A stretch of DNA of 9,795 nt from a virus (taxonomy: Duplodnaviria; Heunggongvirae; Uroviricota; Caudoviricetes): the IMG/VR virus record IMGVR_UViG_2778261533_000002, positions 1 through 9,795 of that record, one strand, 5' to 3'. The notes under the pieces were generated by a model, which had not been told where the DNA came from, did not search any database, and saw only the letters and a program-made list of their open reading frames with translations. Both the position numbers and the translations under genes were made by a program. Below, piece after piece: positions 236 to 9,588 of the stretch (position 1 is its first letter; the number at the start of each line of letters is the position of its first letter).

Positions 236-1309
236 TTATTTCAACTTTAACGCCAAATCTTCAGCTTTTGGATGATAATACCGCATTAGCATTCTTGGAT
301 CTTTATGTCCTGTAATTTTGGTCAGTTCATGCATAGGGAAAATTTCAGCAAGTCGAGAAGTTGCTTCATGTCGAAGGTCATGAAATCTTAAATCTTTAAG
401 GAATGATTCATCACATAATGAGTTTGTTTTCTCGTATCGTTCTCTGGCTCGTTTTACAGCTCGGTCAAAAGCTCGGGTAATCGCGTCTGCACGCATATCA
501 AAAACCTTATCAGCAGCTGGCTTAGAATGTTCCTTGAGACTGGACAGTATCGTGATGGCTTTCGTTGATAAAGGGACATCGCGGGCATTACCATTCTTAG
601 TATCCGGCAGATGTGCAACTCGCCGATCAAGATCGATAAAGCGCCATCGAAGCTCTGCGATTTCGCTACGGCGCATGGCTGTCTCTAACGCCAGAAGAAT
701 GATTGCTGGCAATACTAATGAATGTGTTGCGGCGATGATATGTTCGATCTCGTTGGCTATTTCCTTTCCTGACGTAACACCGGTTTTCTCAGAAACTACA
801 GGCAGCGCTTCCAGGCGTCTGGTCCTGGAGTTCTTGGGTTGAGGTTTGCGAATGGCCTCTACGGGGTTCAGCAGGCTCTCCATGCCCCATTCTTTCCGCG
901 AAACGTTGAATACATGAGAAAGTAAGGCCAAACGCCTTAAAACGGTTGCAGGGGCATAGATTTTCAACCATTCATCTCTCAGCTTGGCGACATCGGCACT
1001 CCTGATGCTGGCCATATAGTTTTTCGCCAGCTGAGTGCCTTTTAGTATCCGCACCAATGATCGGTCTTGCACTGCCCCTTTTTTGTCGGGAACAATCTCT
1101 TTTTCATATCGCGTTAGGGCTTCATACAATGTCGTAGATTCCGCTTCGCTGCGGCTAAGCCAAACTCCTCTCGCCATTTCTGACTCGATCATTTTGGCCC
1201 AAGCTTCTGCTTCTACTTTGGTGTTAAAGGTTTTGGTTTGAGAGGGAAAACCTCGTTTACGGATTTGAGCTTCCCATTGGTAGTTACCACGTTTGCGTAT
1301 AGTCGCCAT
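236..1309 (-). CDS. Tyrosine-type site-specific integrase of element A
   Basis: Open frame 236-1339 on the minus strand. The track start at 1339 is TTG; the in-frame ATG at 1309 (MATIRKRGNYQWEAQIRKRG...) is the more likely start. C-terminal catalytic signature of tyrosine recombinases is present: RFHDLRHEATSRL and the tyrosine in MRYYH. Stop at 236-238. Confidence 0.85.
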   Translation of the reverse strand: MATIRKRGNYQWEAQIRKRGFPSQTKTFNTKVEAEAWAKMIESEMARGVWLSRSEAESTTLYEALTRYEKEIVPDKKGAVQDRSLVRILKGTQLAKNYMASIRSADVAKLRDEWLKIYAPATVLRRLALLSHVFNVSRKEWGMESLLNPVEAIRKPQPKNSRTRRLEALPVVSEKTGVTSGKEIANEIEHIIAATHSLVLPAIILLALETAMRRSEIAELRWRFIDLDRRVAHLPDTKNGNARDVPLSTKAITILSSLKEHSKPAADKVFDMRADAITRAFDRAVKRARERYEKTNSLCDESFLKDLRFHDLRHEATSRLAEIFPMHELTKITGHKDPRMLMRYYHPKAEDLALKLK

Positions 1310-1397
1310 TTCTGTCTGATTCCTAACGAACTGTGGCAATATTGTGGCAAAAAATCCATTTAAATTCGATAGGTATTGATTTTACAAGATCAATTTA

Positions 1398-1446
1398 CGC
1401 ATTCGTAATGCGAAGGTCGTAGGTTCGACTCCTATTATCGGCACCA
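1398..1446 (+). other. Attachment-site core: 3'-terminal 49 nt of a tRNA-Thr(CGU) gene (thrW-like), including the T-arm, acceptor 3' strand and CCA; not a complete tRNA
   Basis: CGCATTCGTAATGCGAAGGTCGTAGGTTCGACTCCTATTATCGGCACCA folds as anticodon stem-loop (anticodon CGT), variable loop, T-arm (TTCGACT loop) and acceptor 3' strand plus CCA. The upstream sequence does not supply an acceptor 5' strand or D-arm. Identity to E. coli thrW is recalled from memory. Confidence 0.8.
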
Positions 1447-1460
1447 TTTAAATCAATAAG

Positions 1461-2624
1461 TTACACATCATTAGTACCTTCCTTATTTTTTGACTGGGAC
1501 GAATTTGGGACCGATGGGTTCAGGATCGAGTCTATTTGCCGTGCGTGTTCGGTAAGGTGATTAGGTGCAAGGTGAGCATATCGACGAACCATTTCGATAG
1601 ACTCCCAGCCTCCCATTTCCTGTAACACTGACAACGGGACTCCGGCTTGAACCAGCCAACTTGCCCAGGTGTGTCTCAAGTCGTGAAATCTGAAATCATC
1701 AATACCAGCCCGTCTCAGCGCCGCTTTCCAGGCTGTGTTTGCGTCATACCGCATCTTCCTTACTGTTGGCGCTTTCGTTCCGTCTGGTTTGGTACAGCTT
1801 TCCTTGTACACAAATACCCAACGGTGATGATTCCCGATTTGTTTTTTCAAAACGCGACATGCAGTATCATTCAGCGCAACGCCAATTGCGCGGTTTGATT
1901 TACTCTCTTCCGGGTTTATCCATGCCACCCGGCGCTGCATGTCTATTTGTTGCCATTCAAGGTTGATGATGTTCGAGCGTCTTAAGCCTGTTGCCAGTGC
2001 AAATTCAACAACAGACTTTAATGGCTCCGGACATTCATCAATCAGCCTTTGTGCTTCATGGGGCTCCAGCCAGCGGATCCGTTTATTCTTTGGTTGAGGC
2101 ACTTTAATAATTGGTGCCTTATCCAGCATTTTCCATTCACGCTCTGCGGCTCTTAGTAGGGCCTTTATAAATGAAAGATGCGTAGCCTTCGTTGCAACGG
2201 ACGCTGGTTTTGGCGTGTATTCTGGAACAGGTTTCCCTTTTTTTCTGCATGCTTCTGCCCTGAGTCTCCAGTTTTCCTCATGACGCCGGTTCGTCATTTT
2301 CTGCATTGCTGAATAAATTTTTGATTCAGTAATGTCTCTTAGTTGCATTCCTGCGAAATGTTGAAGCCAGAATCCGATCCGGCTTTTGTCATCGTCCAGT
2401 GATTTTTTATGTGCTTTCTCTTCAAGCCACCTGACACACGCTTCCTCGAACGTTATATCAGGTATTTCACCAAGTTTGCTGACCCGCCATGCTTCAGCCT
2501 TTAGCTTGTCATGGAGTTCTGTCGCCTGCCTTTTGTCCTTTGTTCCAAGAGACTGTTTAAATCTTTTACCGTTCGGCAATGTGAAACTGGCGTACCATAT
2601 TTCACCTCTGCGGAAGAGTGACAT
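1461..2624 (-). CDS. int: Phage integrase, P22 Int-like tyrosine recombinase (387 aa)
   Basis: ATG at 2622-2624 ([14 protein letters not shown]...), stop at 1461-1463. Catalytic motifs [14 protein letters not shown] and VRRYAHL are present. Length and N-terminus match my recollection of P22 Int, which integrates at thrW. Confidence 0.9.
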
Positions 2625-2851
2625 TTTCTTTCCTCTGTTATGCCATCACCCGCGCTCACCTGGACAGTATGCAGCGGAGACTGAAGAGCCGCAATGCAGG
2701 CTTGTCGTGTTGTGAGGTAAGGAGATTTATTCTTAGTGGGATCTTTGCGTGTTGCCTGAAGACGCCCTGTGCGTATCCAGTTAATGGCAGTCGGTCTGGA
2801 TATCTTGAGAAAATGACAGGCCTCATCGAGTGTGAGGCTGTATGGCTCCAT
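2501..2851 (-). CDS. xis: Excisionase (Xis), 116 aa, helix-turn-helix
   Basis: The track ORF 2501-2935 is an upstream extension. The internal ATG at 2849-2851 ([31 protein letters not shown]...) gives a 116-aa product and overlaps the stop of the upstream gene by 1 nt (TAATG). The 3' end overlaps int by 124 nt in another frame. The position upstream of int and the HTH-like segment fit an excisionase. Confidence 0.75.
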
Positions 2852-3156
2852 TATTTCACCTCTTGCTGTGACATTGTTGAAAAATGGATACCAGCTCGTT
2901 GCTGCCAGACGATCCAACCGAGAGTCATATCCCATGCCATGTATTCGTTATCGCCGTTTTTTGCTCTCCGACGATCTACTAAGTTACCGAAACGCTTTTC
3001 CATGAATAATTCATAAGCTTCGCGTTCATCTGGTTCTACTTCCAGAGATAGGAGTGCGATTTCATAAGCACGGCGCTCAATATCGTCTCGCACGTCAAGG
3101 CTGCTGATACGCTCTTTAATTTCTTTAATCAGTTCTTTGTCGGTAAAAGTGGTCAT
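2851..3156 (-). CDS. Hypothetical phage early protein (101 aa)
   Basis: ATG at 3154-3156 overlaps the stop of the upstream gene by 1 nt (TAATG), and its own stop overlaps the xis start by 1 nt. Acidic, helical-looking sequence with no recognisable motif. Confidence 0.6.
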   Translation of the reverse strand: MTTFTDKELIKEIKERISSLDVRDDIERRAYEIALLSLEVEPDEREAYELFMEKRFGNLVDRRRAKNGDNEYMAWDMTLGWIVWQQRAGIHFSTMSQQEVK

Positions 3157-3518
3157 TATGCTCCAGCCTCCGGTGCTTTTGGCATTACTGCCCAGTGAGT
3201 GATATTGACGTTTTCAAGGTCCCCGACCTGAAATGTCCACTGCCATTCTCCGGTTTCTTTTTGTCCCCAGGTGTACCAGAGAGAACGCCAACCAATTAGC
3301 CAGCCTTCTCCGTTAGCATCGAATAACAAAACACTTTCATTTGCTGGTGGCAGTTCAGTTGACACTGGTATTACTTTGTTTTCCTGTGCTGCACATTTAG
3401 CTTCAAGCGCATCGAATTTACGCACCAGGTATTCAGCATCTGTTTCATTTACTTTCAGATCTCGCGGTACACATCTCCCACGAAGAAACCCTTCCATTTC
3501 GAAAACATTCATGCGCAT
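3156..3518 (-). CDS. DUF551-like phage protein (120 aa)
   Basis: ATG at 3516-3518 is preceded by GGAG at an appropriate distance. The C-terminal segment WQWTFQVGDLENVNITHWAVMPKAPE resembles the conserved THWMPLPEPP end of DUF551 proteins, as I recall the family. First gene of the leftward operon. Confidence 0.65.
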   Translation of the reverse strand: MRMNVFEMEGFLRGRCVPRDLKVNETDAEYLVRKFDALEAKCAAQENKVIPVSTELPPANESVLLFDANGEGWLIGWRSLWYTWGQKETGEWQWTFQVGDLENVNITHWAVMPKAPEAGA

Positions 3519-3973
3519 TTGCGTAACTCCGATAACTCGTTAAAGCGTTCCATAAACATCCCGTAACAGACAACAGGGCAGAGAACGGTGCTGTCTTTTT
3601 CAGTTTGAGAGTGGCGGTGTTAGTTTCTCCACAAAACAGAGAAGAACACCTGCGGTGGCAGCCGCCCGGATGGATTGGGTTATGAGCCCGTCGTCCGGTG
3701 ATGCTCTTCTCTGTTTTGTAAAAAGAGCGGTACCAGCCGGAAGCAAGTGTACAAACTGGTACCGCCAAAGCAGTGGCTGTTGTGGTGACCGGTGCTGATC
3801 TCCGGCTTGCGGTTATTTCAGACTCTCACGGGCGTTTAATTGCCCCGCCGAACAGCTCTTTTCCGCAATAGCTGCAATGTCTTTCGCGCATCAGTCTGCG
3901 CATTCACCACAACGCTGAGAGCACTTAGCCAGTTATCTATCCGAAAGATTAACAGAACACCTTCAATTTTTAA
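3519..3973. promoter_or_regulatory. Divergent control region between the leftward (int/xis) and rightward operons; contains two large inverted repeats and no ORF
   Basis: Imperfect palindrome with 18-bp arms (3631-3648 and 3702-3719, 17 of 18 complementary) separated by 53 bp. Immediately after, a perfect 10-bp inverted repeat GCGGTACCAG/CTGGTACCGC (3727-3736 and 3756-3765) with a 19-bp spacer. A hairpin followed by TTTTT lies at about 3566-3600. Promoter hexamers were not confidently assigned. Confidence 0.4.
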
Positions 3974-4057
3974 CCACAGAACGATGAGGCTAACCGCAAT
4001 GCGTCGAATGTTTATCAGCTTAACGTTGCGAAGCTTCAGGCAGCGGCATTTTCTCAA

Positions 4058-4212
4058 CTGTCAGATTCTGACCCGTCAAAATCTGACGCATCAAAATCTG
4101 ACCCGTCAAAATTTGATGCGTCGAAATCTGGCAAAAAAGCGGGTTTTCACCCGTCAGAATCTGGCGGGGATCCGTCAGTAAAATCAAAACATGATCCGTC
4201 AGATAAAAAACC
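4058..4212. repeat. Tandem 15-bp repeats, consensus cCGTCAAAATCTGAc: five contiguous units (4058-4132) plus three degenerate CCGTCAG-initiated copies (4151, 4172, 4196)
   Basis: Direct reading: ctgtcagattctgac / ccgtcaaaatctgac / gcatcaaaatctgac / ccgtcaaaatttgat / gcgtcgaaatctggc. The period is a multiple of 3 and sits in an open frame, where it encodes DPSKS/DASKS-type pentapeptides. Confidence 0.8.
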
Positions 4213-4330
4213 TTCTCGTCCGGACGCTTCGCAACCGGACACGCAGACGGCTGAACAGGATTTTTTAACTCGCCATCCTGATGCGGTTGTATTCAGCCCT
4301 AAAAAGCGCCAGTGGGGGACGCAGGATGAT

Positions 4331-4699
4331 TTGACCTGCGCACAGTGGCTCTGGAAAAAAATCATCGCCCTGTACGAGCAGGCTGCCGAATGTGACGGCG
4401 AGGTGGTTCGTCCCAAAGAACCGAACTGGACAGCCTGGGCAAACGAAATTCGCCTGATGTGTGTGCAGGATGGTCGTACTCACAAACAAATCTGCGAGAT
4501 GTACAGCCGCGTCAGCCGCGATCCGTTCTGGTGCCGTAACGTGCTCAGCCCGTCGAAGCTGCGGGAAAAATGGGATGAGCTTTCTCTGCGCTTATCGCCG
4601 TCCGTCAGCACGTACACAGAAAAACGCGAAGACCCGTACTTCAAAGCCAGTTACGACAATGTGGACTACAGCCAGATCCCGGCAGGATTCAGGGGGTGA
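4331..4699 (+). CDS. DnaT-like (primosomal protein I C-terminal domain-like) phage replication-associated protein; coordinates are from the first canonical start (TTG), but the frame is open from 3974
   Basis: The C-terminus ...DNVDYSQIPAGFRG matches the characteristic C-terminal end of E. coli DnaT (...SEPDSQIPPGFRG, from memory). Stop at 4697-4699, immediately before the SD (AGGGGG) and ATG of the next gene. The same frame is stop-free for 119 codons upstream (3974-4330) with no ATG/GTG/TTG, so the 5' extent is unresolved. Confidence 0.6.
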   Translation: MTCAQWLWKKIIALYEQAAECDGEVVRPKEPNWTAWANEIRLMCVQDGRTHKQICEMYSRVSRDPFWCRNVLSPSKLREKWDELSLRLSPSVSTYTEKREDPYFKASYDNVDYSQIPAGFRG

Positions 4700-5190: not shown

Positions 5191-5843
5191 TGAGTAATAA
5201 ATATTGCCAGGCGCTGGCGGAACTGCGGAACAAACCAGCCCATGAACTGAAGGAAGTGGGCGATCAGTGGCGCACGCCGGACAACATTTTCTGGGGAATT
5301 AACACTCTGTTTGGCCCGTTTGTTCTGGATCTGTTTACTGACGGTGATAACGCCAAATGTGCTGCGTATTACACGGCGGAAGACAACGCGCTGGCGCATG
5401 ACTGGTCAGAACGCCTTGCGGAGCTTAAAGGTGCTGCCTTTGGTAATCCCCCATACAGCCGCGCCAGTCAGCATGAGGGGCAATACATCACCGGCATGCG
5501 TTACATCATGAAGCATGCCAGTGCCATGCGTGATAAAGGCGGGCGCTATGTTTTCCTGATCAAAGCTGCCACCAGCGAAGTGTGGTGGCCGGAAGATGCA
5601 GATCATATTGCTTTTATTCGCGGGCGTATTGGTTTTGAACTGCCTGCCTGGTTTATCCCGAAGGATGAGAAGCAGGTGCCGACAGGCGCTTTCTTCGCTG
5701 GTGCTATTGCTGTTTTCGACAAGACCTGGAAGGGACCGGCAATCAGCTACATCGGGCGCTATGAACTTGAGGCATGTGGTGAGGCCTTTCTGGCGCAGGT
5801 TCGCCAGCAGGCAGAAAAACTGGTCAGGGAGATGGCGGCATGA
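5190..5843 (+). CDS. Phage Dam-type DNA N6-adenine methyltransferase (217 aa)
   Basis: ATG at 5190 is preceded by GGGGG and overlaps the upstream stop; the track GTG at 5157 is less likely. Motifs [10 protein letters not shown] and FGNPPYS (catalytic NPPY) fit the small phage Dam family found in T1 and lambdoid nin regions. Stop at 5841-5843 overlaps the next ATG (ATGA). Confidence 0.75.
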
Positions 5844-6154
5844 CGACGTTAACTCAATGCCAGCAGCAGGTGCTGGATATGCTGATTTCTTATCAGAAAG
5901 AACGTGGCTTCCCGCCAACCAATCAGGAGGTGGCAACCATGCTGGGATGCATGGCCCGTCTGAAAAAGAACAACAGCGATTTGCACGATTTATTAGTAGA
6001 TTATTATGTAGGTGGTATGACGTTTATGGCGCTTGCCCGTAAACATGGGCGTTCTGATTGCTGGGTTGGGCGCTTATTGCAAAAGGCAGAAGGCATCATT
6101 GAAGGTATGTTGATAATGTTAGAAATAGAATTGGAAATGGACTCAAATATCTAG
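5840..6154 (+). CDS. Q-like late antiterminator (QuuD/21-type short Q) with an atypical LexA-like N-terminus (104 aa)
   Basis: ATGA-coupled to the MTase. The C-terminal two thirds ([35 protein letters not shown]...AEGIIEGML) resemble my recollection of the DLP12 QuuD antiterminator. The N-terminal 36 aa ([33 protein letters not shown]) instead resemble the LexA N-terminal DNA-binding helix pair. The last 20 codons lie in AT-rich sequence. Confidence 0.5.
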
Positions 6155-6326: not shown

Positions 6327-7778
6327 TTATTTTATTTTGCTTACTATATTTGTAATAAGTGGGTCAAATTTCTCATCAATAATTTCAATATATTTTTTAA
6401 TTGCTAAAGTTCTAATTACTTCCTCCTCACATTCTGCTTCTTTAGCAATTGCTTGAGTGTAATTGTGATGATCACTAATCCCTTCCTTTTTTATTAACCA
6501 ATCAAAATCAATATGATACTCCTTGTAGAGGAATTTTTTTACTTCCTCATGTTGAAATACTTCTACTTCTGGTGGCCTATTGCCAGGGAAAGAAAATAAA
6601 TCATCTTTAATGTTTTCTCCAACATCTGCATCTCTTACGGCAATAACATTAAGGCCTGCTTTCTTGAATACCTCGACTGCTTGTCGGACTGCATCTTTAT
6701 CTCCAATATCAGTGATTTGAATGGATTTAAGAATGTCTCTCCGCTTTGCTCTAATTACTTCACTAAGTAAAACTTTTGCAAACTGGTCTTCTACGCAAAT
6801 ATGCAGCCCTTTAAACTGCCCATCAGACAGTATTGATCTCACATGAGTTGTTGAAATTCCATCTTTGATATAGACACCAGTCTGATCTCTAATAAGTAAT
6901 TTTCGTGCATCAGGAGGTAAAGCATTTAATATCACACTTGAGTGTGTTGATAATATTATTTGATGTTTTCTACGTTGACATACTTCCATTAAATATTTTG
7001 CAAATTCATACTGTGCGCTTTCATGAAGAGATGTTTCTGGTTCTTCTAGTACGAAAAGACTTTGCTCTGGAGCTGTTTCAAGCATATCAACCGTATAAAG
7101 AACTCTTCCTTCGCCAAACCCCATGTTATTTTCAGAATAAGAATACCCAAGTCTTTCAACAATACCAATTTCTGAACGACGTGCTCTATGAGAAATTCCT
7201 TGGAATGCGATATCATCATATGGATGACCTATTATTTTTGCCATCTTCAATATTACTGAATGGTCGACGCTTCTTCTCTCTGTTAAATCAAAGTCTTTAC
7301 CGCCATAAACACTTATATCTCTACGTTCTACTTTTGGAATATAGACAGTAAAACCAATGTAAAAACAGTGTCTTTCTGGTTGTCTTTTATATCCAGACCA
7401 AGAAGACTTTATGCGAGTGACAGTCACATCTTGTGTTTTCGTTGAATCATTTGTTTCATATTTATAAATGACACTGGCGTCATTATCGAAAGGGGCTGGA
7501 TCGGCTTTAGATACAGGGAAAAAATCTTTAATATATAATCTCTTATATTCACGGGCTGTAACTGGTTTTTTATATGCGCATATTGCTAACTGCCCAAGAG
7601 TGCTTTTCCCAGCGCCGTTTAGCCCTGATATTGCAGTTACCGGAAAATTTATATTTAATGTTAGTTTTTTTATTCCTCGAAATCCATTTATCTCTAGACT
7701 TTTAATTACGGAGCCAAAGTTTGAGTATCTATTTTTATCAAAGTACATGCATTTTAGTATATTTTTTATGTCTGACAT
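6327..7778 (-). CDS. ABC-type ATPase fused to a Toprim-like nuclease domain; OLD/PARIS/Gabija-like candidate anti-phage defence protein (483 aa)
   Basis: ATG at 7776-7778 has AGGAAAG upstream and an in-frame TAA two codons before it. Walker A GLNGAGKST (about aa 52-60, read directly from the DNA as GGG CTA AAC GGC GCT GGG AAA AGC ACT). Walker B plus D-loop LFVLEEPETSLH (about 241-252). H-loop ILSTHS (about 275-280). C-terminal Toprim-like signature: CVEDQFAKVLL (Glu about 330) and, about 55 aa later, AVRDADVGE (DxDxG, about 383-387). Confidence 0.7.
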   Translation of the reverse strand: MSDIKNILKCMYFDKNRYSNFGSVIKSLEINGFRGIKKLTLNINFPVTAISGLNGAGKSTLGQLAICAYKKPVTAREYKRLYIKDFFPVSKADPAPFDNDASVIYKYETNDSTKTQDVTVTRIKSSWSGYKRQPERHCFYIGFTVYIPKVERRDISVYGGKDFDLTERRSVDHSVILKMAKIIGHPYDDIAFQGISHRARRSEIGIVERLGYSYSENNMGFGEGRVLYTVDMLETAPEQSLFVLEEPETSLHESAQYEFAKYLMEVCQRRKHQIILSTHSSVILNALPPDARKLLIRDQTGVYIKDGISTTHVRSILSDGQFKGLHICVEDQFAKVLLSEVIRAKRRDILKSIQITDIGDKDAVRQAVEVFKKAGLNVIAVRDADVGENIKDDLFSFPGNRPPEVEVFQHEEVKKFLYKEYHIDFDWLIKKEGISDHHNYTQAIAKEAECEEEVIRTLAIKKYIEIIDEKFDPLITNIVSKIK

Positions 7779-8535: not shown

Positions 8536-9588
8536 ATGAAAAATACTGTAAAAATAAACAGTGTTGATTTAATCAACGCTGATTGCCTGCATTTTATTCA
8601 GTCCCTGCCTGATGATTCCATTGACCTGATTGTTACCGATCCGCCGTACTTCAAGGTGAAACCCAACGGTTGGGACAATCAGTGGAAAGGGGACGAAGAT
8701 TACCTTAAGTGGCTGGACCACTGTCTGGCCCAGTTCTGGCGGGTGTTGAAACCTGCCGGAAGCCTTTACCTGTTCTGTGGGCATCGCCTGGCATCTGATA
8801 TTGAGATCATGATGCGTGAACGTTTCAACGTGCTTAACCATATCATCTGGGCGAAGCCGTCCGGACGTTGGAATGGGTGTAATAAAGAAAGTCTGCGCGC
8901 ATATTTTCCTGCCACAGAGCGCGTTCTGTTTGCTGAACATTACCAGGGGCCATATCGCGGCAAAAGTGACGGCTATGCGGCAAAAGAAAGGGAACTCAAA
9001 CAGCACATAATGGCACCGCTGATATCGTATTTCAGGGATGCTCGTGCCGAACTGGGTATAACGGCAAAACAAATTGCCGAAGCCACAGGTAAGAAAAATA
9101 TGGTTTCCCACTGGTTTGGTGCCAGTCAGTGGCAGTTGCCGAATGAGGCTGACTATCGGAAGTTACAGGCACTGTTTTCCCGTATAGCGGCAGAGAAGTT
9201 TCAGGAACAACAACTGGAACAACCACACCACCAGCTGGTGGCATCTTATGATTCACTGAATCGCAAATATTCTGAATTGCTGGATGAGTTTAAATCTCTC
9301 CGGCGCTATTTCTCCGTATCAGTCTCCGTGCCTTATACCGATGTCTGGATGCATAAACCCGTTCAGTTCTACCCGGGTAAACATCCGTGTGAGAAACCGG
9401 CGGATATGCTCAGGCAAATAATCAATGCCAGTAGTCGACCTGGTGATCTGGTTGCTGATTTTTTTATGGGATCCGGTTCCACAATAAAAGCAGCAATGGC
9501 GCTGGGGCGTCGGGCCTTAGGTGTTGAGCTTGAGTCAGAGCGGTTTAACCAGACAGTGAAAGAGATAAACGAGCTGGTGGGGAAATAA
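8536..9588 (+). CDS. DNA methyltransferase, beta-class N6-adenine/N4-cytosine type (motif IV before motif I), 350 aa; no cognate endonuclease in the window
   Basis: N-terminal [12 protein letters not shown] (catalytic DPPY) and C-terminal [17 protein letters not shown] (AdoMet-binding FxGxG). The central target-recognition region contains an HTH-like segment ([12 protein letters not shown]). A GATC sits immediately 5' of the ATG. Confidence 0.85.

What the first reader, a model, noticed from the sequence alone, without database searches (positions are those of the whole stretch)
3519..3973. Gene-free, highly structured control region with no repressor gene: a probable deletion scar that may also hold an sRNA or operators
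Where a lambdoid prophage would carry its immunity and replication-initiator genes, this window has about 450 bp without a credible ORF. It contains an imperfect palindrome with 18-bp arms around a 53-bp loop (3631-3719), an adjacent perfect 10-bp inverted repeat with GGTACC cores (3727-3765), and a hairpin plus T5 at about 3566-3600. These could be operators for a regulator encoded elsewhere, a structured non-coding RNA, or the relic of a large deletion joining the early-left operon to late nin-region genes.
Basis: seen in the sequence. Interest (0 to 1): 0.4.

Follow-up and report, generated by a model that had tools for sequence, protein, structure and literature searches.

The report
Prophage deletion scar holding known sRNA
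The "gene-free" stretch is a patchwork left by at least four deletions in a decayed SfV/mEp460-type prophage, and it still holds a full copy of the published small RNA sRNA-17, its terminator and a conserved but undescribed RNA hairpin, so it is mostly ordinary prophage decay with one unexplained RNA element inside.

Summary
The third, the 3566-3600 hairpin plus T5, is no more stable than shuffled sequence.

Window 3509-3996 is a mosaic of remnants:
- the last 57 nt of yfdR;
- a 57-59-nt internal piece of yfdQ;
- a 317-bp block (3619-3935) that is 98-100% identical to the unannotated leader between the repressor and yfdP in intact relatives (mEp460, O157 prophages; SfV in part);
- the last 19 nt of cro plus the cro-ymfL spacer;
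- a start-less replication gene O'.

The repressor, cro, yfdP and most of yfdQ and yfdR are gone.

The primers and probe of Sun et al. 2020 place sRNA-17 at 3914->3721 on the minus strand. The GGTACC inverted repeat plus a U-run is its intrinsic terminator. That terminator is kept as a structure in 31 of 31 diverse relatives, with different stem sequences.

The large palindrome (3719->3631, minus strand) is a conserved RNA hairpin. It has 8 compensatory pairs, and 66 G-U cells against 3 A-C cells. Its tip matches the anticodon arm of initiator tRNA at 14 of 14 bases. Its function is unknown.

The sRNA copy has lost the upstream region of its relatives beyond about 20 bp, so it is probably silent here. 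The repeats are not operators, and no ORF in the stretch is credible.

The parts
3509..3565 (-). Remnant of the 3' end of yfdR (last ~19 codons; overlaps the yfdS start at 3518). Deletion joint A lies at 3565/3566.
   Evidence: Window 3500-3565 matches L005 (mEp460) 1038-1103, L001 and L007 at 97-98%. yfdR is annotated at L005 1047-1583. Joint display with CCGT.A microhomology.
3564..3622 (-). Internal fragment of yfdQ (57-59 nt). Deletion joint B lies at 3619-3622.
   Evidence: 100% identical to K-12 yfdQ (H42) and to L005 2161-2219 inside yfdQ 1712-2536. The fold is no better than shuffles.
3619..3935 (-). Conserved 317-bp leader block of the early-left operon. In intact relatives it lies between the repressor and yfdP.
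   Evidence: 99.4% identical to mEp460 L005 3001-3317, 98.7% to L001, 100% to H16. Matches to part of the query are present in 2987 of 5426 complete E. coli genomes, mostly unannotated.
3625..3724 (-). Long conserved RNA hairpin. The outer stem is ~24 bp (arms 3631-3655 and 3695-3719). There is an inner conserved hairpin. The terminator U-tract can pair with the conserved GGAGAA downstream.
   Evidence: -51.2 kcal/mol, z -7.8. RNAalifold and pair counts on 31 diverse sequences: 98% of cells paired, 8 pairs with compensatory change, 0/500 shuffles reach the covariation score, slid controls give at most 2 pairs. 66 G-U cells versus 3 A-C cells, my tally from the pair tables, which favours the minus-strand RNA.
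3677..3690 (-). Tip of the long hairpin: CGGGCUCAUAACCC. It is identical to the anticodon stem-loop of E. coli initiator tRNA-fMet (three G-C pairs plus the CUCAUAA loop).
   Evidence: Exact match located. The tRNA sequence was verified as 100% identical to genes annotated tRNA-Met, median 4 places per genome. No full tRNA is detected.
3720..3767 (-). Intrinsic terminator of sRNA-17: a 13-bp stem built on the GGTACC inverted repeat (3727-3765), followed by UCUUUUU (3726-3720).
   Evidence: A stem directly before a U-run is kept in 31/31 relatives, with different stem sequences. It coincides with the RACE-defined 3' end (primer at 3721).
3721..3914 (-). Full-length homologue of sRNA-17 (Sun et al. 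2020). The RNA runs 3914->3721.
   Evidence: The full-length primers map at 3721-3752 (0 mismatches) and 3882-3914 on the minus strand (1 mismatch). The northern probe maps at 3803-3852 on the plus strand, so it is antisense to the RNA. The orientation of the RACE primers is given.
3779..3913 (-). Closing helix of the sRNA body (GUUGUGGUGA 3913-3904 with UCACCACAAC 3788-3779). It encloses a 5' hairpin, an internal hairpin and a last hairpin.
   Evidence: Perfect 10-nt complement (I15). Present in the MFE folds of nearly all 37 distinct units from four sequence classes. The helix is invariant, so it shows no covariation.
3934..3996 (+). Remnant of the last 19 nt of cro plus the cro-ymfL spacer. 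Deletion joint C lies at 3934/3935 and joint D at about 3996/3997.
   Evidence: 100% identical to SfV L007 4480-4542 (cro is 4298-4498, orf36 starts at 4542). 96.8% identical to the E. coli H8 prophage L254 2047-2109, just upstream of ymfL.
3986..4699 (+). Truncated, start-less replication gene O' with an orphan iteron array (4046-4210).
   Evidence: The frame is open, with no ATG/GTG/TTG before 4331. PHROG 391 'replication initiation O-like' matches profile positions 190-298 only. RefSeq annotates the same sequence as 'missing N-terminus' in L002 and K-12. Iterons (D1-D3).

Best explanation
Window 3509-3996 is the collapsed control region of a degraded SfV/mEp460-type lambdoid prophage. At least four illegitimate deletions removed the immunity genes (repressor, cro), ymfL through the N-terminus of O, all of yfdP, and most of yfdQ and yfdR.

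What survives intact is the 317-bp leader of the early-left operon. On the minus strand it reads, 5' to 3':
1. the ~194-nt structured RNA published as sRNA-17;
2. its intrinsic terminator, which is the GGTACC inverted repeat plus a U-run;
3. a long conserved RNA hairpin that in intact phages sits between that terminator and the first early-left gene, yfdP.

In intact relatives, leftward transcripts that start upstream of the block mostly stop at the terminator and give the discrete sRNA. In one immunity type they start at a consensus promoter placed so that +1 falls at the first base of the conserved RNA. Read-through RNA carries the long hairpin into the yfdP-yfdT message. There the hairpin most likely acts as a processing, stability or protein-binding element.

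Shown here: homology, the joints, the primer mapping, conservation of the terminator, and covariation of the hairpin.

Inferred: attenuator behaviour, the role of the hairpin, and the view that this copy is transcriptionally orphaned. That view rests on two facts: the copy keeps only about 20 bp of its relatives' upstream sequence, and it has lost all of its downstream genes.
For: Joints and missing genes: read against the annotated intact relatives.

The same O' truncation occurs in K-12 CPS-53 and in a DLP12-position prophage.

sRNA-17 mapping.

Terminator.

Hairpin covariation and strand asymmetry.

A consensus TTGACA-18-TACATT promoter with flanking palindromes lies directly upstream of the conserved RNA in L189, L196, L225 and L243.

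The RNA belongs to a family with shared architecture in four sequence classes, found in Escherichia, Shigella, Salmonella and Klebsiella phages.

No sigma-70-like promoter is found in 3400-4100.

No protein family matches any ORF in the stretch.

An identical 1401-bp stretch (window 3000-4400) is present in a second assembly, GCA_958313175.1.

Published RNA-seq shows that replacing the sRNA-17 body raised yfdP RNA about 95-fold. This fits a cis-acting barrier.
Against: No transcript data exist for this strain, so silence of the copy is an inference.

In the mEp460/RS218 context no convincing -10/-35 precedes the RACE 5' end (my reading). The origin of the sRNA there, own promoter or processing, is unresolved.

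The yfdP up-shift in the published mutant could be a polar effect of the inserted cassette.

The viral loci that make up most of the hairpin alignment were gathered with a pattern that fixes 16 of 17 bases of the hairpin tip. Invariance of those bases is therefore partly by construction. Relatives found by BLAST and the unforced flanks agree, however.

The sRNA body alone is not more stable than shuffles (z = -1.6), and its closing helix shows no covariation.
Confidence: 0.82

Rival explanations
1. The sRNA-terminator-hairpin block is not mainly a trans-acting sRNA gene. It is a cis-acting leader device of the early-left operon. Possible forms are RNA-mediated processive antitermination (as put does in HK022), a leader-derived immunity RNA (as in P4 CI or P1 c4), or an RNase III-type processing switch. 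On this view sRNA-17 is simply the terminated leader.
For: The conserved RNA begins at the predicted +1 of a consensus operator-flanked promoter in one immunity type.

Its position between the immunity region and the first early-left gene is fixed across genera.

The terminator and hairpin always sit next to each other.

The largest changes in the published knockout were the adjacent genes yfdP and yfdR.
Against: There is no sequence similarity to the HK022 pL/put region.

There is no Rfam C4, isrK or other match in the block.

A discrete, terminated RNA is seen in a lysogen by northern blot. An efficient antiterminator should not produce that.

The knockout raised downstream RNA rather than lowering it.

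The same RNA body also occurs in P1-like and Klebsiella phages, away from any yfdP operon.
Confidence: 0.3
2. The inverted repeats are DNA operators for a repressor encoded elsewhere in the genome.
For: Palindromic symmetry, and a location next to where the immunity region used to be.
Against: The GGTACC stem is replaced by unrelated stem sequences in relatives while pairing and the U-run are kept.

The long hairpin has 66 G-U cells versus 3 A-C cells, which is a strand-specific RNA signature.

In intact relatives the candidate operators are other palindromes that flank the promoter, upstream of this block.
Confidence: 0.03
3. The stretch encodes one or more small proteins. Candidates are the 107-aa minus-strand ORF 3445-3768, the 47-aa plus-strand ORF 3655-3798 annotated in mEp460, or an N-terminal extension of YfdP as annotated in Salmonella phage 118970_sal3.
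For: Some records annotate hypothetical proteins over this block. A peptide-like stretch, ITGRRAHNPIHPG, is kept in four divergent relatives.
Against: That frame has no ATG. Its phase relative to yfdP differs between relatives. Its C-terminal continuation changes frame with loop indels.

The two 'synonymous' changes in it are also the compensatory pair of the inner stem.

No Pfam hit for any of the ORFs, and no PHROG hit for the one scanned.

The 107-aa ORF crosses two deletion joints.
Confidence: 0.05
4. The palindromes are chance features of junk DNA left by deletion.
For: One of the three reported structures (3566-3600) is at chance level.
Against: z-scores of -5 to -8. 98-100% conservation in thousands of E. 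coli genomes. Covariation in Salmonella and Klebsiella relatives.
Confidence: 0.01

Closest known systems
sRNA-17 of E. coli K1 RS218 (Sun et al. 2020, Front Microbiol 11:574833, PMC7719688)
   Same: The sequence is the same. The full-length primers and the northern probe map with 0-1 mismatch. The block is 99.4% identical to the mEp460 copy that the paper names as a homologue. Strand, length (~193-194 nt) and terminator are the same.
   Different: This copy keeps only about 20 bp of the upstream region that the authors used as the ArcA-bound promoter fragment. Both neighbours, the repressor side and yfdP, are deleted. Expression is untested. The paper did not describe the closing helix, the wider family or the downstream hairpin.
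CPS-53 (KpLE1) and DLP12-type cryptic prophages of E. coli K-12 and relatives
   Same: The backbone is the same (yfdT, yfdS, O', yfdN, yfdM), and the truncated O' begins within a few bases of the same point (window 3985-3991), consistent with a shared truncation.
   Different: K-12 CPS-53 keeps yfdP, yfdQ and yfdR but has lost the whole leader block. The DLP12-position element in OHT76-1 joins yfdR directly to O'. Only this remnant keeps the sRNA-terminator-hairpin block without its genes.
Lambda pL leader (nutL, the RNase III-sensitive hairpin before N, tL terminators)
   Same: Same map position (the first few hundred nucleotides of the leftward early transcript). Both contain a long hairpin ahead of the first gene, and terminators.
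   Different: The boxA-like GCUCUCA just upstream of the RNA is not kept across contexts. No matching site follows cro. No N-like gene is present.
HK022 put RNAs (cis-acting antiterminator RNAs)
   Same: A structured RNA that starts at or near +1 of the early-left promoter, ahead of terminators.
   Different: No sequence similarity. The architecture differs: a closing helix with three hairpins, ~135 nt, versus two stem-loops, ~70 nt. Here the RNA is followed at once by a terminator that does terminate.
Anticodon stem-loop of initiator tRNA-fMet
   Same: 14 of 14 bases are identical (CGGGCUCAUAACCC), including the three G-C pairs and the CAU anticodon loop. They are presented at the tip of a long helix.
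   Different: No D arm, T arm or acceptor arm. ARAGORN and the Rfam tRNA model find nothing. The lower two pairs of the tRNA stem are not kept. Loop position 37 is U in the Klebsiella and Salmonella variants.

Membership tests
sRNA-17 (published prophage sRNA) | Sequence identity over the RACE-defined ~193 nt | tested here: met
   Primers at 3721-3752 (0 mismatches) and 3882-3914 (1 mismatch). Probe at 3803-3852 (0 mismatches). 99.4% identical to mEp460.
sRNA-17 (published prophage sRNA) | Minus-strand RNA that ends in an intrinsic terminator | tested here: met
   The RACE and probe orientation puts the RNA on the window's minus strand. A 13-bp stem plus UCUUUUU lies at 3767-3720.
sRNA-17 (published prophage sRNA) | Upstream promoter fragment with an ArcA site (primers PsRNA-17 F/R, ~250 bp upstream) | tested here: not met
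   Homology to mEp460 and its relatives stops at 3935, about 20 bp upstream of the 5' end. Beyond that lie cro-tail and O' sequence. No promoter-like site is found.
sRNA-17 (published prophage sRNA) | Expression as a discrete RNA | not testable with these tools
   Needs a northern blot or RNA-seq of the source strain.
Deletion scar in a lambdoid prophage | Flanks collinear with intact relatives, intervening genes absent, gene fragments at the joints | tested here: met
   Four joints, with ~1.06 kb and ~0.78 kb missing at joints A and B relative to mEp460, and short microhomologies. Repressor, cro and ymfL...O N-terminus are missing at joints C and D.
Rho-independent terminator | G+C-rich stem directly followed by a U-run, conserved as a structure | tested here: met
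   (z -5.15). 31/31 relatives keep a stem abutting U5-7, with at least 8 different stem sequences.
Conserved structured RNA (cis-regulatory hairpin) | Compensatory base changes and strand-specific G-U tolerance | tested here: met
   8 pairs and 51 cells with double changes. 0/500 shuffles reach the covariation score. Slid controls give at most 2 pairs. 66 G-U cells versus 3 A-C cells, my tally from the pair tables. Caveat: most sequences were gathered with a pattern inside the loop.
Lambda-type nut site | boxA plus a boxB hairpin present after both early promoters, with an N-like protein | tested here: not met
   The boxA-like GCUCUCA varies (GAAUCCUUA, UUGUUUUUA, and others) in other contexts of the same RNA. 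No similar element lies in the retained cro-ymfL spacer. No N-like ORF is present.
HK022-type put RNA | Sequence or structure similarity to putL/putR | tested here: not met
   No significant match to HK022 24000-31000. Function as an antiterminator was not tested.
tRNA / tRNA-like gene | Cloverleaf detectable by ARAGORN or Rfam RF00005 | tested here: not met
   Only a 14-nt identity to the anticodon arm.
Rfam families (C4, isrK, DicF, and others) | Score at or above the gathering threshold | tested here: not met
   No hit in the window. Only chance-level hits at E up to 10 in 3400-4100. No hit on the homologous blocks of seven relatives.
Operator sites | Conserved DNA sequence of the palindrome half-sites | tested here: not met
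   Stem sequences diverge while pairing is preserved. The mismatch pattern is strand-asymmetric.

The most novel reading that the evidence does not exclude
The surviving 317-bp block may be one example of an unrecognised three-part leader RNA: a structured ~190-nt RNA with an invariant GUUGUGG/CCACAAC closing helix, then a terminator, then a ~90-nt hairpin. It heads the early-left operon of SfV, mEp460, ST64B and phiNP-type phages across Escherichia, Shigella, Salmonella, Klebsiella and Citrobacter.

The hairpin tip copies the anticodon arm of initiator tRNA-fMet. It could therefore bind something that reads that arm. Candidates are the 30S P site or IF3, MetRS, or a VapC/MvpT-type toxin that cleaves tRNA-fMet. 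Established knowledge, not checked here, is that such toxins are carried by Shigella pINV and Salmonella. On this reading the hairpin would be a regulatory switch or an anti-toxin decoy, and not a mere processing site.
Probability: 0.2. Interest if true: 0.7.

Novelty: new member of a known kind. Interest (0 to 1): 0.38.

Why it matters
For this window, the result closes the question. The "structured gene-free region" is prophage decay around an sRNA gene that is already published. It is not a new control system.

Three wider points could be useful:
- sRNA-17, published as an sRNA with no Rfam homologue and found full-length in only 60 of 1,676 E. coli genomes, is in fact one class of a family with a conserved architecture, sitting at the head of the early-left operon.
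- Its terminator and the following hairpin are far more widespread than the sRNA body. Matches to part of the 419-bp query, most often the hairpin-terminator module, are found in about 55% of complete E. coli genomes, often in several copies, almost always unannotated.
- The largest expression changes reported for the sRNA-17 knockout are the adjacent yfdP and yfdR genes. This suggests that a cis (terminator or leader) effect should be separated from trans regulation.

The initiator-tRNA-like hairpin tip gives a concrete and cheap hypothesis to test.

Tried and rejected
1. Nut-site idea. A boxA/boxB-like pair at 3925-3880 on the minus strand looked plausible. I rejected it because the boxA-like part is not kept in other contexts and no nutR or N counterpart exists.

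2. put-like antiterminator. No similarity to the HK022 early region.

3. Rfam. Nothing at gathering or permissive thresholds, in the window or in seven relatives. The only hits were C4 and isrK elsewhere in intact relatives, and true tRNAs in RCS47.

4. Coding potential of the hairpin region. Frames are inconsistent between relatives, and there are no Pfam or PHROG hits.

5. Exact search for joint B in one genome per species found nothing. A second genome scan with a 16-base pattern was swamped by chance matches in unrelated taxa and was useless. The same pattern worked in viral contigs.

6. Search for sRNA-to-downstream-leader base pairing with duplexfold was uninformative, because the energies were within the range of shuffles.

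7. A sequence-based alignment across sRNA classes recovered only the invariant closing helix. Covariation in the last hairpin was read by eye and was not scored.

8. Looked for tRNA genes or tRNA-like calls next to the sRNA in relatives. ARAGORN finds only the two known tRNAs of RCS47.

9. RS218 itself is not in the E. coli collection, so the mapping used the paper's primers.
Full report
**What the window is.** The window is a whole 9,795-bp contig (NMHY01000063.1, GCA_002512315.1). It carries a heavily deleted lambdoid prophage. The features, in order, are:
- two integrases (236-1339 and 1461-2624, minus strand);
- an excisionase;
- yfdT (2851-3156) and yfdS (3156-3518);
- the region in question;
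- an O-like replication gene fragment with iterons;
- yfdN and a Dam-type methylase;
- a fused LexA/Q ORF;
- an AAA-type nuclease and a second methylase;
- a holin.

Its right-hand 3.5 kb is 99.9% identical to an intact prophage of E. coli H8.

**Check of the observation.** The large palindrome is real. Its arms are 3631-3655 and 3695-3719, 25 nt and 84% complementary. As RNA it folds at -51.2 kcal/mol on the minus strand (z -7.8) and -46.2 on the plus strand (z -6.5).

The perfect 10-bp GGTACC repeat (3727-3736 and 3756-3765) is also real. It extends to a 13-bp stem with z about -5.

The third reported feature, a hairpin plus T5 at about 3566-3600, is not a structure. Its MFE is -6.4 kcal/mol, z is +1.0, and 176 of 200 shuffles fold as well.

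The ORFs that overlap the stretch have no Pfam hit, and the one scanned against PHROGs has none either.

**The stretch is a mosaic of remnants.** I compared it with annotated intact relatives: mEp460, SfV, an O157:H7 prophage, strain Ecol_224 and the H8 prophage. BLAST at word sizes 7-11 gives the following map.
- Window 3500-3565 is the start of yfdS plus the last 57 nt of yfdR.
- 3564-3622 is an internal piece of yfdQ. It is 100% identical to K-12 yfdQ, and it contains the supposed "hairpin + T5".
- 3619-3935 is a 317-bp block, 99.4% identical to mEp460 30819-31135. In intact phages this block lies between the repressor and yfdP.
- 3934-3996 is 100% identical to the last 19 nt of SfV cro plus the spacer up to the ymfL-like orf36.
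- From about 3986 an O-like frame runs open to 4699, but it has no start codon before 4331. It matches only the C-terminal part of the O profile.

Relative to mEp460, joint A (3565/3566) removes about 1.06 kb. Joint B (3619-3622) removes about 0.78 kb, including all of yfdP. Both joints show short microhomologies. Joint C removes the promoter-operator region, the repressor and most of cro. Joint D removes ymfL through the N-terminus of O.

Homology of the truncated O' to K-12 CPS-53 starts at window 3991, and to a DLP12-position element of strain OHT76-1 at 3985. The truncation therefore looks shared and older than the others.

No complete E. coli genome in RefSeq has the whole arrangement. 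A second draft assembly carries it, 100% identical over 1,401 bp. The "deletion scar" reading is therefore correct, but there are several scars, and the join is to a broken O gene, not to nin genes.

**The 317-bp block holds a published sRNA.** A full-text search for yfdP together with sRNA found Sun et al. 2020 (PMC7719688). They described sRNA-17, a 193-nt RNA mapped by 5' and 3' RACE and by northern blot in an mEp460-like prophage of E. coli K1 RS218.

Their primer table maps onto the window as follows.
- The "full length" forward primer is at 3721-3752 with no mismatch.
- The reverse primer is at 3882-3914 on the minus strand with one mismatch.
- The northern probe is at 3803-3852 on the plus strand, so it is antisense to a minus-strand RNA.
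- The 5'-RACE primers are plus-strand sequences and the 3'-RACE primers are minus-strand sequences. This fixes the RNA as 3914->3721 on the minus strand.

The RNA ends exactly at the GGTACC hairpin and its UCUUUUU tail, so that repeat is the sRNA's intrinsic terminator. Rfam has no model for the RNA, as the authors also noted.

**The terminator is conserved as a structure, not as a sequence.** I gathered relatives from phage GenBank records and from viral contigs and reduced them to 31 sequences below 96% identity. In every one, a stem directly abuts a run of 5-7 U on the minus strand. The stems differ: GGCGGUACCAG, GGCGGUUAUCCA, GUCGGCGUC, UGCCCA, GCGGCGCCAG, CUGGCGG, GGCGGCAUC and GGGGCGGUAACA. 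This is what a terminator does and what an operator does not.

**The large palindrome is a conserved minus-strand RNA hairpin.** RNAalifold on the same 31 sequences predicts an outer stem, an inner conserved hairpin and a small variable hairpin. Some relatives carry a 25-30-nt insertion that forms its own stem.

The pair counts are:

| Measure | Result |
|---|---|
| Cells paired | 98% |
| Pairs with changes on both sides | 8 (51 cells) |
| Shuffles reaching the covariation score | 0 of 500 |
| Such pairs with the 3' partner slid by 1-3 columns | at most 2 |

The pair tables contain 66 G-U or U-G cells and only 3 A-C cells (my tally). The helix therefore holds on the minus strand and would be interrupted on the plus strand. 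This points to an RNA made in the direction of the early-left operon.

The conserved GGAGAA just after the hairpin can pair with the terminator's U-tract.

The region is not coding. The apparently conserved peptide frame has no start codon. Its phase relative to yfdP differs between relatives. It changes frame after loop indels.

One caveat applies. The viral sequences were collected with a 17-nt pattern inside the inner hairpin, so invariance of those bases is partly forced. The unforced flanks, and the relatives found by BLAST, show the same conservation.

**An unexpected detail at the hairpin tip.** The tip of the inner hairpin (3690->3677, CGGGCUCAUAACCC) is identical over 14 nt to the anticodon stem-loop of initiator tRNA-fMet, with three G-C pairs closing a CUCAUAA loop. 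I checked the tRNA sequence against E. coli genomes: it is 100% identical to genes annotated tRNA-Met, at a median of four places per genome.

There is no tRNA here. The lower pairs of the tRNA stem are not kept. Loop position 37 is U in the Klebsiella and Salmonella variants. Whether this is mimicry is untested.

**sRNA-17 belongs to a wider family.** I extracted every unit that runs from the conserved 5' motif GUUGUGGUGAAUGCG to the terminator. This gave 37 distinct units in four sequence classes: mEp460 type (this window), SfV type, Klebsiella type, and one longer form.

Nearly all of them fold the same way:
- a closing helix, GUUGUGG(UG) with (CA)CCACAAC (window 3913-3904 with 3788-3779, I15);
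- a short 5' hairpin;
- one or two internal hairpins;
- a last hairpin that abuts the 3' strand of the closing helix.

The stem of that last hairpin differs between classes (CCGG, CCGGG, GGUGG, GCUGG), while its loop keeps AGGCA or AGNUCAGCA. The closing helix is invariant, so it shows no covariation. The body of the window's copy is not more stable than shuffles (z -1.6).

The upstream context varies:
- In one immunity type, a consensus TTGACA-18-TACATT promoter flanked by palindromes puts +1 at the first base of the conserved RNA.
- In SfV the unit follows a terminator.
- In several prophages a T-arm-like sequence precedes it.
- In the P1-like phage RCS47, three copies follow tRNA or tRNA-like genes.
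- In the mEp460/RS218 context I see no convincing -10/-35.

The origin of the 5' end there, own promoter or processing, is therefore open.

**What this means for the window.** Homology to all relatives stops at 3935, about 20 bp upstream of the RNA's 5' end. This removes the ~250-bp fragment that Sun et al. used as the ArcA-responsive promoter. No sigma-70-like site is found in 3400-4100.

Downstream, the genes that the leader would control are gone, and the hairpin now runs into yfdQ and yfdR debris and then yfdS. I therefore infer that this copy is an orphan, intact in sequence but probably silent or driven only by read-through. This is an inference, not a measurement.

**Mechanism in intact phages.** This section is inferred. 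Leftward transcripts end at the terminator and accumulate as the sRNA. The fraction that reads through carries the long hairpin into the yfdP-yfdT message. A 24-30-bp duplex there would be a natural RNase III or protein-binding site.

The published knockout replaced the sRNA body but kept the terminator. Its largest effects were on the adjacent genes: yfdP rose about 95-fold and yfdR went from 0 to 8 reads. This fits a cis barrier, but a cassette promoter could also explain it.

I tested and rejected a lambda-type nut site and found no similarity to HK022 put.

**Verdict.** It is a deletion scar (several of them), and it holds a non-coding RNA. That RNA is already published, the repeats are RNA structures and not operators, and one reported hairpin is noise.

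The unexplained residue is the conserved hairpin with its initiator-tRNA-like tip, and the family-level architecture of the sRNA. Neither appears in Rfam or in the papers I could search.

Noticed in passing
window 5840-6154 (+): This 104-aa ORF is a fusion of a LexA-like N-terminus (PHROG 362, residues 1-39) and the C-terminal part of a Q antiterminator (PHROG 79). It is a further internal deletion: relative to the E. coli H8 prophage it removed RusA, KilA-N and DUF968.
   Followed up: partly
window 3677-3690 (-): CGGGCTCATAACCC at the tip of the conserved hairpin is identical to the anticodon stem-loop of initiator tRNA-fMet (three G-C pairs plus the CAU loop). It may be mimicry. No tRNA is detectable.
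   Followed up: partly
window 4046-4210 (+): An orphan iteron array (15-nt period, TCAAAATCTGACCCG-like) sits inside a start-less O' fragment. The origin repeats are kept without an initiator able to bind them.
   Followed up: no
window 236-1339 and 1461-2624 (-): Two tyrosine integrase genes lie in tandem at the left end. The second is only 81% identical (DNA) to the IntD-type region of strain OHT76-1.
   Followed up: no
window 6327-7778 (-) and 8536-9588 (+); L255 4488-6043: An AAA_15/AAA_21 ATP-dependent nuclease and an N6/N4 DNA methylase sit between Q and the holin, in a moron or defence-like position. In the second assembly that carries the same remnant, the nuclease is interrupted by a DDE transposase.
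   Followed up: no
L009 (phage RCS47) about 940-1720, minus strand: Three copies of the sRNA-17-type 5' motif follow tRNA-Asn, tRNA-Thr and an unannotated tRNA-like stem. They are antisense to the annotated plp and upl genes, so those CDS calls may overlie RNA genes.
   Followed up: partly
L003, L010, L011, L142, L203: about 20-45 nt upstream of the sRNA 5' motif: A T-arm-like sequence (GGTCCGTTCGATTCGGAC, followed by ACCGGCA) lies directly before the sRNA in several prophages. ARAGORN calls no tRNA. It may be a processing signal.
   Followed up: partly
L189, L196, L225, L243: about 45 nt upstream of the sRNA 5' motif: A consensus promoter (TTGACA-18-TACATT) flanked by ATGTAGGATAnCCAACAT-type palindromes places +1 at the first base of the conserved RNA. 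This is probably pL and its operators in another immunity type.
   Followed up: partly
L005 5639-5827 and L003 5694-5882 (+): Rfam isrK and C4 antisense RNA matches lie inside the annotated Rha/antirepressor gene of mEp460 and of an O157 prophage. This looks like a P1 immI-like RNA control module. It is absent from the window.
   Followed up: no
L240 (viral contig), sRNA unit: A hybrid sRNA has an SfV-class body but the mEp460-class linker after CACCACAAC. This suggests recombination at the invariant closing helix.
   Followed up: no
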